Source: a virus (taxonomy: Duplodnaviria; Heunggongvirae; Uroviricota; Caudoviricetes). From it: 64,000 nt of DNA. Position numbers: made by a program. The stretch lies in IMG/VR virus record IMGVR_UViG_2718218449_000002, one strand, 5' to 3'. Below, piece by piece: positions 12,001 through 15,000 of this stretch; position 1 is the first letter of the stretch; each line of letters starts with the position of its first letter.

Positions 12001-15000
12001 TTCCGGCTTTGCTGCACGCCCTGATGACCTCGATTTCCCTGTTGCTCATCTCTTCGGTCAGATAGTCGCCTTCGGATGTTTTTACGACACAATAACCGCC
12101 AATGCGTGCGCCCCTGTCGACGAATGGGTTGTATTTGTGCGTGGGGGCGCAGTCAATACCGTTGGACTCGTAAATGTCCTTCTCGTAAACAAGTTTGCAT
12201 TGCCCCCACTGAATGGCTCCTGTGACCTGTGCCAGATGCAGAAGCCCCATATAACTGATATCCAGGCATACAGCCTTTTTTCGTGGTACCAGATACGCCA
12301 GCTTGCTGGCCGGGTTCAGGGTTATGCCTATGGCGGCAACATTGATGATAGCGTTCTGTGCGCTGGACAGATTTCCCCGTGCTGTGTCAGCCAGAAAGGA
12401 ATTTTTCTGGAATTGCTGAATTGCAAACTGACTTTCCTTAGCCCATGTCAGCGTCGGTTCAGTTAATGCTTCGCAGAAAAAGCGCTCCTGCTGTTTAACA
12501 AATTCAACGATATCGAACATTTTTATTGGTCCTGAAAATCAGAAAGGACAGGGGGAGAATTTCCTCTCCCATTCTTCTTCCGCCCGTGCATAGGCGATCG
12601 CTGAGATATAATCGTTGTAAGCCTCTTCCGCTTTATCGCCAGTAAGTGCCAGCTGGGCTTCTTTGGGTAAAAAAAGGCTGCTCATAAGCAATGGTTTATC
12701 GGGGAACATGCTGATAAGCTCCTGCGCCCGATCGTCAATCCATTTATCCTTTTCATCCTGAATGTGCTGATTAACCCAGCGACGCTCCTCTATTCGGTCA
12801 CAGGTGAGGTATGCGTTCATGGCGGAACTCCTGATTTCGGTTAATGCATTAAATTAATTTGTCGGGAAAGCTGACAGACAGGGCAGTCACATTCTTCCTC
12901 CTGCTCCTTAGCGAAGAAATATGCAGCGGCCTGTAATGCGATGTCTTCTGGATTTTCTGCGATAAACATAACATTGCCTTCCGTATCAATAACAGAAATA
13001 GCCTCATCAGGCAGGACAAAAAAATAGGCGATGATTTTATCATCCATAAAAACTTCACCCATTATAGTTTCTGCTGGCGTTACGACGCTTTTTACATTGA
13101 TATTAATTTTTTGATTGAGCATGATATTTCCTTTCAGGCTGGTGAGATTAACGGCTGGCCTTTATGGTTCAGGTAAACTTCTATTGCATCTGAAATAATG
13201 CGAATTTTTTCAATCAGTGAATGTGCGTAAAGTGCATTATTAACGTTAGCTGACGCCATGTAATAACGCCCGTTGTAAAGAATTGCTGTGCCGGGTTTAA
13301 CGTCCTTGCGAGAAACTAATATGGTTCCGTAGTGAGGTTTGAGCATGACAAATCCTCCGGTTAATTAATCCAGATATTTAATTTAATCCCCGATATATAA
13401 TCGGGGAGAGATTTAATTAAAGATTAACGTTGAAACCAAAGCGGGAAGATTTTTCCGATGTGCGGGAAATATCCAGCAATTTACGGCGCATTTCTTCCGT
13501 CAGATGCTTGAAGGCGTTAAATTCGGCGACAGCGGCGTCAACGTTATAGCCCTTGCTGTGTAGCTCGTTGAGGATGCGCATAGTTGGGCTTGGCATGTCG
13601 AAGAGTACGGAAGCATCAAGGCTGATAACCTTGCGATCAACATAGTTCATCGTGGCGTAGGGGTGATGCTCTGAAAACCACGATAAAGGAAAATTGATAT
13701 TCATCGCAGGAGAAGACAGAGCCAGTTGTTTCTGTTCCCATAGCTGTTTTTCCATGCGATCGAATTCAGCAATATAGGCTTCCTTGAATGCAGCTGCTTT
13801 TTTACCAGTGAAGCCCATCACCAGGAAGACGAATCCGTTTTTGGTGATTTGGTACATTGGGCGTTGTTCGCCTTTGGCGTCGGTGTAGGTAACGTCCTCA
13901 AAATTGAGGGCGTTAAATTTCTCTGAGCATTCAATATTTGCAATGGCACGTAATACGTTATCGTGTCGCTTGCAAAAATATTCGGCAACGGCAAAGGACG
14001 TAGTAACAGCGCGGCCATTGGAAATGGTGATTTCAGGTTGAGAAAGGACTGGGATAGTAGCCATAATGGCAGCCTCCTTGATTGGTGATTAATAACCACC
14101 GCAGGAGGTGAGAAGCTCGCTGGCGGTGGACTGTACAGGGTTCTCACAACTGGCAATCAAGGGAACCAGCCCGACCGAAGTCGGCCCCATACAGCCCACC
14201 ATTGATAAGATGTGCGTGTATGTCGATACAAAAAAAGACGCTGGCGCGTCTGTATCGCCTCGATTGTCAGCGGGGTGAGAATCCCGACACCCGTTTTATA
14301 AGGTGTTCGCCCAATATAGCCCCGGCATCACACGCAGTCAATACCGTCCTTTCTCGGAAATGCTTTGGCGATGTGGCAGGTGGGAGACCCATTTCGACCC
14401 GATTCGGCCTACTTATCTTCAGCAATAGTCCCTCGGGCCTCGCCGCTTTACGTGCGACATATTCCCGTCCATGAACCCTTCACCACACCCCAAAACATTC
14501 CCTGTATTGGTCAGCGCCAACTTCCTGCCAGTGTTGCCCGTTCTCACGCCGTTCTCGCTCTCGCGCGGGGATACTCTCTCATCGACCGGATCGCACCCGA
14601 TGATACAGCACGTTTACGTGTAGGGGTCTAAACAGGTCATTGACGCTGTAAAGCTCCAGATTGTTAAAGAGCATTTTGCGGCGGGTTAAGTCGCGCCGTA
14701 CGACTGATTTATGTAGCCCTGTGTAAGGGCGCGATGTTTCTGGCTTGAAATAAATATAACTTGCGGTTATTTTCATGTAAATACCGTCGGTGCTTTTTTA
14801 AGGACGAGAAATTATTACTTAACTGATTTTTAAAGTGATTTATTTTTTAAGGGGACAGATAACAGGAGGGGATATGCAAAGAAAAACCCGGCGCATGGGC
14901 CGGGCTATTTATCTGGTCCTGTTCTCATTCAGTAGAGTAGGGGCCAAGAAATCGCACTCCGTTGAAGTGAATAAGATGAGAAGGTGCATCAGCCACCCAT

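What the first reader, a model, noticed from the sequence alone, without database searches (positions are those of the whole stretch)
14661..14785. Candidate PL with rrn-type boxA, a roughly 680-nt untranslated leader and no recognisable N gene
Just left of the t-imm-like terminator is a near-consensus minus-strand promoter (TTTACA-17-TATATT) whose spacer holds an operator-like palindrome similar to the OR 17-mer. About 75 nt downstream lies TGCTCTTTAACAA, matching the rrn boxA better than lambda nut boxA. No Arg-rich N-like ORF follows; the first gene (Rha-like, 14064) is about 680 nt away and is preceded by an intrinsic terminator. This suggests N-independent, host-factor-based antitermination or a long noncoding PL RNA.
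Basis: partly seen in the sequence, partly recalled or inferred. Interest (0 to 1): 0.7.

Follow-up and report, generated by a model that had tools for sequence, protein, structure and literature searches.

The report
Early-left promoter with orphan phi80-type nutL
This is the repressor-controlled early-left promoter of a Shiga-toxin phage; its long "empty" leader is a mosaic of a phi80-type antitermination site whose N gene has been replaced, followed by two known small-RNA genes that control an antirepressor, and the site is also kept in over 100 other prophages, most without a recognisable N gene.

Summary
A sigma-70 promoter (TTTACA-17-TATATT, 14781..14753, minus strand) carries a perfect operator palindrome in its spacer. 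An exact rrn boxA (TGCTCTTTAACAA, 14673..14661) lies about 73 nt downstream. No N gene exists anywhere in the window.

The window is an Stx2a phage of the VT2phi_272/PA2/P13374 type, whose lack of N, cII and cIII is already published. The "680-nt untranslated leader" is not empty:
- **14673..14357** is 95% identical to the phi80 nutL/N-leader, and the homology stops at the N ribosome-binding site.
This resembles the P1 immI and Gifsy-1 isrK modules.

The unexpected part is boxA plus about 160 nt of structured RNA (14673..14513).
- It is conserved at 88-100% in at least 120 viral contigs and in Enterobacter, Salmonella and Escherichia genomes.
- It shows compensatory base changes.
- It lies upstream of intrinsic terminators in 88% of carriers.
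- Only about 10% of carriers encode a phi80 N homologue.
- In HK639 a put antiterminator RNA sits in the same slot.

N-independent antitermination is therefore plausible but untested.

The parts
14876..14906 (-). Intrinsic terminator ending the cI / BsuBI-type methylase / endonuclease immunity operon (t-imm equivalent)
   Evidence: 8-bp stem with 6 GC pairs, then a T-run
14753..14781 (-). PL-equivalent promoter, TTTACA-17-TATATT; start site inferred near 14746
   Evidence: Position is supported by a second, different promoter sequence at the same place in Stx2_EC3283 and by the annotated PL of phi80, HK225 and HK639.
14756..14770 (.). Operator-like perfect palindrome ATAACTTGCGGTTAT in the promoter spacer/-10
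   Evidence: Related copies lie at OR (18158-18172 and 18206-18220). P13374 has a 1-mismatch version.
14716..14730 (-). 5'-proximal hairpin GCCCUUACACAGGGC. The stem is identical to what I recall of the lambda boxB stem; the loop is not GNRA-like.
   Evidence: Identical in all window-type leaders, so there is no covariation to test it.
14679..14698 (-). Hairpin CGGCG...CGCCG a few nt 5' of boxA, giving the rrn-like order hairpin then boxA
   Evidence: rrnB and phi80 also have a GC hairpin immediately 5' of boxA.
14661..14673 (-). boxA, TGCTCTTTAACAA, identical to the E. coli rrnB boxA
   Evidence: Homologous position to the annotated phi80 nutL boxA.
14513..14647 (-). Conserved structured RNA domain of the phi80-type nutL. 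It is closed by AGCGUCA/UGGCGCU. It contains the phi80 'nutL core' hairpin CACGUAAACGUG (14620..14609) and a covarying helix (14611..14571).
14357..14500 (-). N-leader hairpin. It is the element found directly upstream of N in phi80 and in HK97/933W-type phages; here it ends where the N ribosome-binding site would be.
   Evidence: Folding z-score -3.7. The interior is deleted in P13374 and EC3283 while the outer stem is kept.
14313..14341 (-). Second promoter, TTGACT-17-TATATT (PisrK equivalent)
   Evidence: Its predicted start coincides with position 1 of the Rfam isrK match.
14229..14306 (-). isrK-family sRNA gene with its intrinsic terminator (14251..14236 plus T7)
   Evidence: RF01394, 58.7 bits against a gathering score of 50
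14119..14206 (-). C4-family antisense RNA. Its single-stranded GUGAGAA (14147..14141) is complementary to UUCUCAC in the isrK loop (14281..14275) and upstream of the Rha ribosome-binding site (14114..14108).
   Evidence: RF01695, 77.1 bits against a gathering score of 45. All three sites change together in Stx2_EC3283.
14089..14202 (-). 37-aa ORF overlapping C4, in the position of Gifsy-1 orf45 and P1 icd. It is fused in frame to the Rha ORF in relatives.
   Evidence: PMC4825925
13417..14064 (-). Rha-family antirepressor-like gene, the first long ORF of the left operon
   Evidence: (Rha and anti-repressor PHROG families); annotations

Best explanation
**What it is.** The feature is the cI-repressed early-left promoter (PL) of an N-less Stx2a phage, followed by a mosaic non-coding leader. 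Going downstream from the transcription start, the leader holds:
1. An immunity-linked 5' segment with two hairpins.
2. A phi80-type nutL, made of a consensus boxA and a conserved, structured RNA domain of about 135 nt.
3. The large hairpin that precedes N in other phages.
4. At the exact point where N would begin, a cassette like P1 immI or Gifsy-1 isrK: its own promoter, the isrK sRNA with its terminator, a C4 antisense RNA, a short ORF and a Rha-family antirepressor gene.

**How it most likely works (inferred).**
- In the lysogen, cI on the operator keeps PL off. The internal promoter supplies isrK and C4 RNAs, and C4 pairing keeps the antirepressor untranslated.
- After cI is lost, PL fires. 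The nascent boxA binds NusB-S10 and assembles the host Nus complex with no phage N protein.
- This complex, possibly helped by the adjacent structured RNA, keeps RNA polymerase resistant to premature termination across about 400 nt of untranslated RNA.
- The extra transcription then feeds into the isrK/C4 switch. Some transcripts stop at the isrK terminator, giving long isrK-containing RNAs. Others read through into the antirepressor gene and on to the kil, gam and recT genes.

**Shown versus inferred.** The identity, homology and conservation of every part are shown. The Nus dependence and the antitermination activity are inferred.
For: **Identity of the phage and of each part**
- The window is 100% identical over 14050-14950 to VT2phi_272, PA2 and ArgO145, and 97% identical to P13374 and TL-2011c.
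- The promoter, operator and boxA are confirmed.
- Window 14673..14357 is 95% identical to phi80 M11919 698-1014. That stretch is the annotated nutL signal plus leader, and it ends 36 nt before the phi80 N gene.
- Window 14494..14363 is 92% identical to the leader directly upstream of N in mEp234 and 933W-like phages.
- isrK and C4 score above their Rfam gathering thresholds, and a promoter sits exactly at the isrK start.
- Three-way covariation between the C4 segment and its two target sites is seen in EC3283.
- No N gene is present.

**Conservation of the module**
- At least 120 IMG/VR contigs carry boxA plus the module at 88-100% identity with unrelated flanks.
- It also occurs in 9 species-representative genomes of Enterobacter, Salmonella and Escherichia, always with boxA at the same spacing.
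- It occurs in 224 of 5426 complete E. coli genomes.
- On 73 distinct variants, 99.5% of cells pair, against 30-43% when the partners are slid. Seven pairs show changes on both sides, six of them in one helix.
- Loop-length variants break any reading frame, so the module is non-coding.

**Hints that the module affects termination**
- 66 of 75 carriers have a strong sense-strand intrinsic terminator 0.3-1.8 kb downstream: mean 1.1 per locus, against 0.35 on the antisense strand.
- Only about 10 of 120 carriers encode a phi80 N homologue. The first genes are otherwise diverse small ORFs.
- HK639 shares the phi80 5' leader but has its annotated put-like antiterminator RNA in the same slot.

**Precedents.** boxA acts without N in rrn operons, and a widespread antitermination mechanism protects CRISPR arrays from Rho (PMC7665894; PMC5725501).
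Against: - There is no functional evidence of any kind for this phage.
- In phi80 the same element is annotated as the site of action of a phage N protein. The module may therefore need a protein partner that this phage lacks.
- From my own knowledge of the rrn literature, rrn-type boxA complexes work well against Rho but poorly against intrinsic terminators. The one strong barrier downstream here is the intrinsic isrK terminator.
- The leader after boxA is G-rich and C-poor, which makes it a poor Rho loading site, so anti-Rho protection may not be needed.
- No boxC-like GU-rich element lies within about 30 nt of boxA as it does in rrnB.
- The Rha gene has its own promoter, so PL read-through may not be needed for its expression.
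- The zero divergence of the leader among the window, P13374 and EC3283 could reflect recent recombination rather than selection.
Confidence: 0.55

Rival explanations
1. Vestigial nutL. The boxA and structured RNA in this phage are a relic left when a recombination event swapped N for the isrK-C4-Rha cassette. PL transcripts simply run into the isrK terminator or read through it passively, and the module does nothing here.
For: - Homology to the N-carrying phages ends exactly at the N ribosome-binding site, a typical mosaic joint.
- The N-proximal hairpin has suffered a 105-nt internal deletion in P13374 and EC3283, which is consistent with relaxed constraint on that part.
- The PR operon has no boxA and no strong terminator before Q, so this phage does not need N-type antitermination on the right.
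- The Rha gene has its own promoter.
Against: - The boxA and module are 100% identical in three lineages whose flanks differ.
- They are kept at 88-100% identity in more than 100 carriers, most without a recognisable N gene, and with compensatory changes that preserve helices.
- A relic would be expected to decay or be lost, as the interior of the N-leader hairpin was.
Confidence: 0.22
2. A classical nut site served in trans. The module is a true N-utilisation site that needs a phage protein supplied by something not recognised here: an unrecognised protein of this phage, or N from a co-resident lambdoid prophage in the EHEC host.
For: - The phi80 record annotates this element as nutL next to a gene named N.
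- The module contains an A-rich-loop hairpin, CACG-UAAA-CGUG, that the phi80 genome annotation calls the 'nutL core'. One variant carries a compensatory change.
- From my own knowledge, EHEC strains carry many lambdoid prophages.
Against: - No homologue of phi80 N, HK97-type N, HK225 gp40 or lambda N is present in the window.
- Only about 10 of 120 carriers encode a phi80 N homologue, and no other protein family is shared at that position.
- phi80 N has no arginine-rich motif and falls in a PHROG of unknown function.
- The module is single-copy, with no nutR counterpart in either the window or phi80.
Confidence: 0.13
3. Long non-coding PL RNA. PL mainly produces an RNA of about 510 nt that ends at the isrK terminator (14746..14236). 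This RNA acts as an extra, repressor-controlled source of isrK sequence, and so activates antirepressor translation in trans after induction. Antitermination is not the point.
For: - The isrK terminator is the only strong intrinsic terminator in the proximal left operon.
- In Gifsy-1, short IsrK acts in trans on the read-through isoform to switch on anrP translation (PMC4825925).
- From my own knowledge, P1 immI likewise has a repressor-controlled promoter upstream of a constitutive one.
Against: - This does not explain why boxA and the structured domain are conserved in carriers that have no isrK.
- Whether isrK embedded in a long RNA would be active is unknown.
Confidence: 0.1

Closest known systems
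Phage phi80 PL-nutL-N leader (GenBank M11919; phi80 genome JX871397)
   Same: - 95% nucleotide identity from boxA through 317 nt of leader.
- Same position relative to PL.
- Same 'nutL core' hairpin and the same large hairpin before the N ribosome-binding site.
   Different: - phi80 has TGCTTTTTAACAA; the window has the exact rrn sequence.
- The promoter, operators and first 70 nt of the transcript are unrelated.
- The phi80 N gene and the tL1 terminators are absent, replaced by isrK-C4-Rha.
Lambda N/nut antitermination
   Same: - boxA in the PL transcript.
- A hairpin with an A-rich loop downstream of it.
- A structured leader.
- Terminators further down the operon.
   Different: - There is no N gene and no arginine-rich ORF.
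- There is no nutR copy.
- boxA and the hairpin are about 40 nt apart.
- A much larger conserved RNA domain is present.
rrn leader antitermination (boxB-boxA-boxC with NusA/B/E/G, SuhB and S4), and the N-independent boxA elements of suhB and CRISPR arrays
   Same: - A 13/13 boxA identical to rrnB.
- A GC hairpin just 5' of boxA.
- A long untranslated RNA downstream.
- No phage protein available.
   Different: - No boxC-like element lies within about 30 nt.
- The downstream barrier is an intrinsic terminator, not a Rho-dependent one.
- The leader is G-rich.
- Nus dependence is untested.
put antiterminator RNAs of HK022 and HK639
   Same: - A cis-acting RNA at the start of the PL operon in phages without N.
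- HK639 carries its put-like RNA in exactly the slot where phi80 and the window carry boxA plus the module, after a shared 5' leader.
   Different: - There is no sequence similarity to the HK022 or HK639 put RNAs.
- put RNAs have no boxA.
- From my own knowledge, put RNAs come as an L and an R copy; this module is single-copy.
P1/P7 immI (c4-icd-ant) and Gifsy-1 isrK-orf45-anrP
   Same: - Rfam C4 and isrK matches.
- A promoter at the isrK start, and the isrK terminator.
- A short ORF followed by an antirepressor-type gene.
- C4 complementary to sites both upstream and downstream of itself, with covariation between phages (PMC4825925).
   Different: - Here the cassette sits in the N position of a lambdoid PL operon, behind a cI-controlled promoter and a nutL.
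- The antirepressor is of the Rha family.

Membership tests
Lambdoid N/nut early antitermination system | boxA sequence in the early transcript | tested here: met
   TGCTCTTTAACAA at 14673..14661, homologous to the annotated phi80 nutL boxA.
Lambdoid N/nut early antitermination system | boxB hairpin downstream of boxA | tested here: inconclusive
   CACG-UAAA-CGUG at 14620..14609 equals the 'putative nutL core' of phi80. The loop is A-rich and 4-5 nt long. One compensatory variant exists. The hairpin competes with the covarying helix in the consensus fold.
Lambdoid N/nut early antitermination system | An N protein encoded by the phage, normally the first gene after nutL | tested here: not met
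   tblastn with four N-type proteins gave a best E-value of 0.065. The leader ORFs match no PHROG family. The literature also reports that N is absent in this phage type (PMC4122784).
Lambdoid N/nut early antitermination system | A second nut site (nutR) in the PR operon | tested here: not met
   No boxA core lies on the + strand between 18.2 and 23 kb. There is no second copy of the module.
phi80-type nutL/N-leader | Sequence homology to the phi80 nutL signal in the same position relative to PL | tested here: met
   95.3% identity over 317 nt.
rrn-type (N-independent) boxA antitermination leader | Consensus boxA | tested here: met
   Identical 13-mer in the rrnB leader.
rrn-type (N-independent) boxA antitermination leader | boxC GU-rich element shortly after boxA | tested here: not met
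   rrnB has TGTGTGGG 21 nt after boxA. In the window the nearest GU-rich run (GGGGTGTGGTG) is about 170 nt downstream.
rrn-type (N-independent) boxA antitermination leader | Dependence on NusB, NusE and SuhB, and resistance to Rho | not testable with these tools
   This needs reporter assays in nus mutants, or in vitro transcription.
put-type cis-acting antiterminator RNA (HK022, HK639) | Sequence or structural homology to the put RNAs | tested here: not met
   No similarity by blastn or alignment.
put-type cis-acting antiterminator RNA (HK022, HK639) | Located at the start of the early operon, upstream of terminators, in a phage without N | tested here: met
   Same slot as the HK639 put-like RNA. 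Terminators lie downstream in 66 of 75 carriers.
Rfam RF01394 isrK | Covariance-model score above the gathering threshold, with its own promoter and terminator | tested here: met
   58.7 bits against a threshold of 50; full-length match at 14306..14231; promoter and terminator.
Rfam RF01695 C4 antisense RNA (P1 immI type) | Covariance-model score above the gathering threshold, and complementarity to sites flanking it in the same transcript, upstream of an antirepressor gene | tested here: met
   77.1 bits against a threshold of 45. GUGAGAA pairs with UUCUCAC at two sites, and all three change together in EC3283. The gene downstream is Rha/anti-repressor.

The most novel reading that the evidence does not exclude
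boxA plus the conserved structured RNA of about 135 nt (window 14673..14513) is a previously unrecognised class of cis-acting processive antiterminator. It would work without any phage protein, using boxA to recruit the host Nus complex and the structured domain to extend protection to intrinsic terminators. It would be the functional counterpart of N/nut and of the put RNAs in a large group of N-less enterobacterial prophages, including the O104:H4 and O157:H7 Stx2a phages.
Probability: 0.3. Interest if true: 0.8.

Novelty: new variant of a known kind. Interest (0 to 1): 0.55.

Why it matters
This phage type carries stx2a in the 2011 O104:H4 outbreak strain and in highly virulent O157:H7 lineages. 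Its lack of N, cII and cIII has been noted in the literature, and how it regulates the lysis-lysogeny choice is left open there.

This analysis shows that the left operon keeps a complete phi80-type nut leader, and that the antirepressor behind it is under isrK/C4 antisense control. That gives concrete, testable elements for how induction is wired.

More generally, a boxA-containing structured RNA is conserved at the head of PL operons in over 100 prophages that mostly lack a recognisable N gene. This makes the question of how N-less lambdoid phages get past their early terminators directly testable. If the module works with host factors alone, it would be a third solution beside N/nut and put RNA, and another natural target of the Nus complex outside rrn, suhB and CRISPR arrays.

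Tried and rejected
- **HK022 put RNA.** No similarity between the leader and the HK022 PL/nun region.
- **HK639 put-like RNA.** It shares only the phi80-type 5' leader and a short hairpin-like stretch, not the module.
- **Rac prophage of K-12.** Checked in the hope of finding a well-studied copy; the module is absent.
- **Rfam.** Searched at E <= 10 over 12500-19500. Nothing credible lies in 14350-14750, only chance eukaryotic families.
- **Prophage anti-sRNAs (AgvB, AsxR) and Pas sRNAs.** These lie elsewhere, at the PR' moron site, and the papers do not mention this region.
- **A nutR-like second copy.** Not found in the window or in phi80.
- **"Exact rrn boxA goes with loss of N".** Rejected. 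The phi80-type TGCTTTTTAACAA occurs in more than 56 carriers, of which only about 10 have a phi80 N homologue.
- **Arginine-rich-motif scan of carriers.** It recovers the mEp234 N control. In 22 of 92 carriers it finds only alternative-frame or alternative-start artefacts and one small family with a KERRR motif.
- **The 65-aa ORF 14579..14776.** Rejected as a gene. Its ATG lies upstream of the inferred start site, it matches no family, and loop-length variants in relatives break the frame.
- **King et al. 2011 (HK639 put RNAs).** The paper is not held in the library, and I also could not consult the phi80 N/nutL paper behind GenBank M11919, so the experimental basis of the phi80 N/nutL assignment could not be checked.
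- **Printed boxA sequences in the Nus papers.** Not found in the text, so the rrnB leader itself was fetched instead.
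Full report
**What the window is.** Over 14050-14950 the window is 100% identical to the Stx2a phages VT2phi_272, PA2, PA8, ArgO145 and phi346. It is about 97% identical to P13374, TL-2011c and related phages of the O104:H4/O103:H25 type, and to prophages in O157:H7 and other STEC genomes.

The local map, read leftward on the minus strand, is as follows:
- a LexA-family cI repressor (18152..17439);
- a BsuBI/PstI-type methylase and endonuclease (17344..14925), standing where lambda has rexAB;
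- an intrinsic terminator (14906..14885);
- the feature under study;
- a Rha-family gene (14064..13417), then kil, a gam-like gene, recT, exo and ssb.

**Checking the observation.**
- The promoter TTTACA-17-TATATT is at 14781..14753. A 10/12 match is not significant on its own, since 6 sites were found against 5.5 expected. Three further facts make it credible.
  - The spacer contains the perfect palindrome ATAACTTGCGGTTAT (14756-14770). Its only close relatives in the immunity region flank or overlap PR and the cI start (18158-18172 and 18206-18220).
  - In Stx2_EC3283 the -35 and spacer are a different sequence that again forms a promoter (TTGACT-18-TATATT) at the same place, while the transcript from the -10 onward is identical.
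  - The PL annotated in phi80, HK225 and HK639 lies at the corresponding distance from the homologous leader.
- The boxA TGCTCTTTAACAA (14673..14661) is the only exact copy in the window. It is letter-for-letter the boxA of the E. coli rrnB leader.
- The distances are correct: about 73 nt from the inferred start to boxA, and about 680 nt to the Rha ATG.
- No N gene is present.
  - tblastn with phi80 N, an HK97-type N (mEp234), HK225 gp40 and lambda N found nothing better than E = 0.065.
  - The three ORFs inside the leader match no PHROG family, whereas the mEp234 N control does.
  - The absence of N, cII and cIII in this phage type is already published (PMC4122784).

**What the leader is made of.** The 680 nt are a mosaic of four recognisable pieces.
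1. *Immunity-linked 5' segment.* The first 70 nt or so occur only in this clade of Stx phages. They fold into two hairpins, GCCCUUACACAGGGC and a GC hairpin ending a few nucleotides before boxA.
2. *phi80-type nutL.* From boxA on, 14673..14357 is 95% identical to phi80 M11919 698-1014. That is the region annotated "nutL regulatory signal" plus the leader, up to 36 nt before the phi80 N gene. The phi80 genome record marks the homologous boxA (TGCTTTTTA) and the hairpin CACGTAAACGTG (window 14620..14609) as putative nutL boxA and core.
3. *N-leader hairpin.* The last 130 nt of that stretch (14494..14363) are also 92% identical to the leader immediately upstream of the unrelated, HK97-type N gene of mEp234 and 933W-like phages. 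This segment folds into a long hairpin, with z = -3.7 against shuffles. P13374 and EC3283 have lost 105 nt of its interior but keep the outer stem.
4. *isrK-C4-Rha cassette.* Homology to all N-carrying phages stops at the N ribosome-binding site. After it come a full-length C4 antisense RNA match (14206..14119, 77.1 bits against 45), a 37-aa ORF overlapping C4, and the Rha-family gene, which scores with Rha and anti-repressor families.

This fourth piece has the organisation of Gifsy-1 isrK-orf45-anrP (PMC4825925). From my own knowledge it also matches P1 immI (c4-icd-ant). The APSE phages likewise carry both RNAs, with the c4 sRNA's antisense regions matching the region upstream of an adjacent BRO-family gene (PMC7313666).

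A functional antisense relationship is supported by covariation. The C4 segment GUGAGAA (14147..14141) is complementary to UUCUCAC in the isrK loop (14281..14275) and to UUCUCAC 45 nt upstream of the Rha start (14114..14108). In EC3283 all three have changed together, to GUCCUAA, UUAGGAC and UUAGGAC.

**The unexpected part: the boxA module is widespread and mostly lacks N.**
- In all of them boxA plus about 160 nt is 88-100% identical to the window, while both flanks fall into many unrelated classes.
- The boxA varies: TGCTTTTTAACAA is the commonest, followed by TGCTCTTTAACAA, CGCTCTTTAACAA, AGCTCTTTAACAA, GCTTCTTTAACAA and TGCTCATTAACAA. The exact rrn match in the window is therefore one variant of a phage boxA, not a special feature of N-less phages.
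- A second scan with a core 24-mer, independent of boxA, found the module in species-representative genomes of seven Enterobacter species, Salmonella enterica and an Escherichia species. boxA was always present at the same spacing.
- The module occurs in 224 of 5426 complete E. coli genomes, including O104:H4 2011C-3493 and DH5-alpha, which matches at the phi80-type identity level (94.9%). It is annotated in none of them.
- RNAalifold on 73 distinct variants gives a closed multi-helix domain (window 14647..14513). In it 99.5% of cells are paired, against 30-43% when the partners are slid by 1-3 columns.
- Seven pairs have changes on both sides, six of them in one helix (window 14611..14571). 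They include the U-A pair specific to the window's lineage.
- Loop-length variants rule out a conserved reading frame.
- Only about 10 of the 120 carriers encode a phi80 N homologue, one encodes an HK225 gp40 homologue, and none encodes an HK97-type N within 1.8 kb.
- The first genes are diverse small, often acidic ORFs, followed by kil and gam homologues.
- A scan for arginine-rich N-termini recovers the N control but finds nothing consistent in the carriers.
- phi80 "N" itself has no arginine-rich motif and belongs to a PHROG of unknown function.
- 66 of 75 carriers have a strong sense-strand intrinsic terminator 0.3-1.8 kb downstream of the module, upstream of kil and gam. The mean is 1.1 per locus, against 0.35 on the antisense strand.
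- HK639 is annotated as carrying a put-like antiterminator RNA. It shares the phi80-type 5' leader and then has that put-like RNA exactly where phi80 and the window have boxA plus the module. Analogous modules occupying one slot is the usual sign of equivalent function in lambdoid mosaics.

**How it most likely works.**
- *Shown:* the parts, their homologies, their conservation and the RNA structure.
- *Inferred:* the mechanism that follows.

In the lysogen, cI occupies the operator and PL is silent. The internal promoter supplies isrK and C4, and C4 pairing keeps the antirepressor untranslated. After cI is lost, PL fires and boxA recruits NusB-S10 and the rest of the Nus complex without N. 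Precedents for N-independent action are rrn operons and CRISPR arrays (PMC7665894; PMC5725501). The modified polymerase traverses about 400 nt of untranslated RNA and increases flux into the isrK/C4 switch and beyond.

In this particular phage the need for processive antitermination looks modest.
- The only strong intrinsic terminator in the proximal left operon is that of isrK (14250..14229).
- There is none between PR and Q.
- There is no boxA in the PR operon.

Points against the inferred mechanism:
- The leader is G-rich, which makes it a poor Rho substrate.
- It lacks a nearby boxC.
- From my own knowledge, rrn-type complexes are weak against intrinsic terminators.

I therefore hold the N-independent antitermination step at roughly even odds. 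The main rival is that the module is a relic in this phage. The strong conservation and covariation across N-less carriers argue against relic status for the family as a whole.

**Comparison with known systems and novelty.**
- By descent the element is a phi80-type nutL, so membership is met.
- It fails two defining features of an N/nut system: no N and no nutR.
- It has the boxA of the rrn system but not its boxC.
- It has the location of a put RNA but not its sequence.
- The distal half is a standard isrK/C4/antirepressor module.
- The lack of N is known, and phi80 nutL is annotated in GenBank M11919, as far as I recall deposited in the 1980s.
- What appears new is that this nutL-type RNA is retained behind PL in N-less Stx phages and in over 100 other prophages. 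It is a structured, covarying, unannotated RNA absent from Rfam.
- I class it as a new variant of a known kind, with a 0.3 chance that it represents a phage-protein-independent antiterminator class.

**Limits.**
- There are no expression data.
- The experimental basis of the phi80 N/nutL assignment could not be read.
- The IMG/VR sample is redundant and was ascertained with an exact 20-mer.
- Several compensatory changes are shared by one clade (15 sequences), so they count as few independent events.

Noticed in passing
window 14108-14114, 14141-14147 and 14275-14281; L005 (Stx2_EC3283) about 2880-3100: There is three-way covariation in the antisense control of the antirepressor. C4 GUGAGAA pairs with UUCUCAC in the isrK loop and with UUCUCAC upstream of the Rha ribosome-binding site. 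In Stx2_EC3283 the three sites read GUCCUAA, UUAGGAC and UUAGGAC. This is P1/P7-style specificity switching within Stx phages.
   Followed up: partly
window 14925-17344 (minus strand): A BsuBI/PstI-family restriction endonuclease and its methyltransferase sit between cI and PL, co-oriented with cI, where lambda has rexAB. Stx2_EC3283 has two further ORFs (156 and 127 aa) between the endonuclease and PL.
   Followed up: no
window about 14380-14484; L004 (P13374) and L005: The large hairpin that precedes N in other phages has a variable interior. P13374 and EC3283 lack 105 nt but keep the outer stem (UUUUGGGGUG...CACCGCCAAAGC). Many IMG/VR carriers have other inserts between the same stem halves.
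   Followed up: partly
loci such as L074, L067, L016 and L132, about 150-185 nt after the 20-mer: In many carriers, though not in the window, the module is followed by a strong Shine-Dalgarno sequence and a three-codon mini-ORF. The commonest form is GAGGAGTGATTCCA ATG AAG CAC TAA; variants encode MKQ or MK. The purpose is unknown.
   Followed up: no
L131 (HK639) 34187-34414; L139 (Enterobacter soli): HK639 shares the phi80-type first 45 nt or so of the PL transcript and then carries its annotated put-like RNA instead of boxA plus the module. L139 combines an HK639-like 5' stretch with boxA plus the module. A short stretch, GTCG(A/T)ACGGCGCGAC, is shared by HK639 and the window (14704..14690).
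   Followed up: partly
window 18200-23500 (+ strand): There is no strong intrinsic terminator and no boxA between PR and the Q gene. Strong terminators appear only after Q (23521, 24180 and 25857). The right early operon of this phage therefore seems not to need N-type antitermination.
   Followed up: partly
window 12489-12501 (+ strand): A one-mismatch boxA look-alike, TGCTGTTTAACAA, lies on the strand antisense to the left operon, near the recT start. It is probably chance: 2 matches within 2 mismatches against 1.75 expected.
   Followed up: no
H138 (E. coli DH5-alpha) and other laboratory strains: Laboratory strains such as DH5-alpha carry a 94.9%-identical (phi80-type) copy of the boxA module, unannotated. 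This may be a convenient, safe background for testing it.
   Followed up: no
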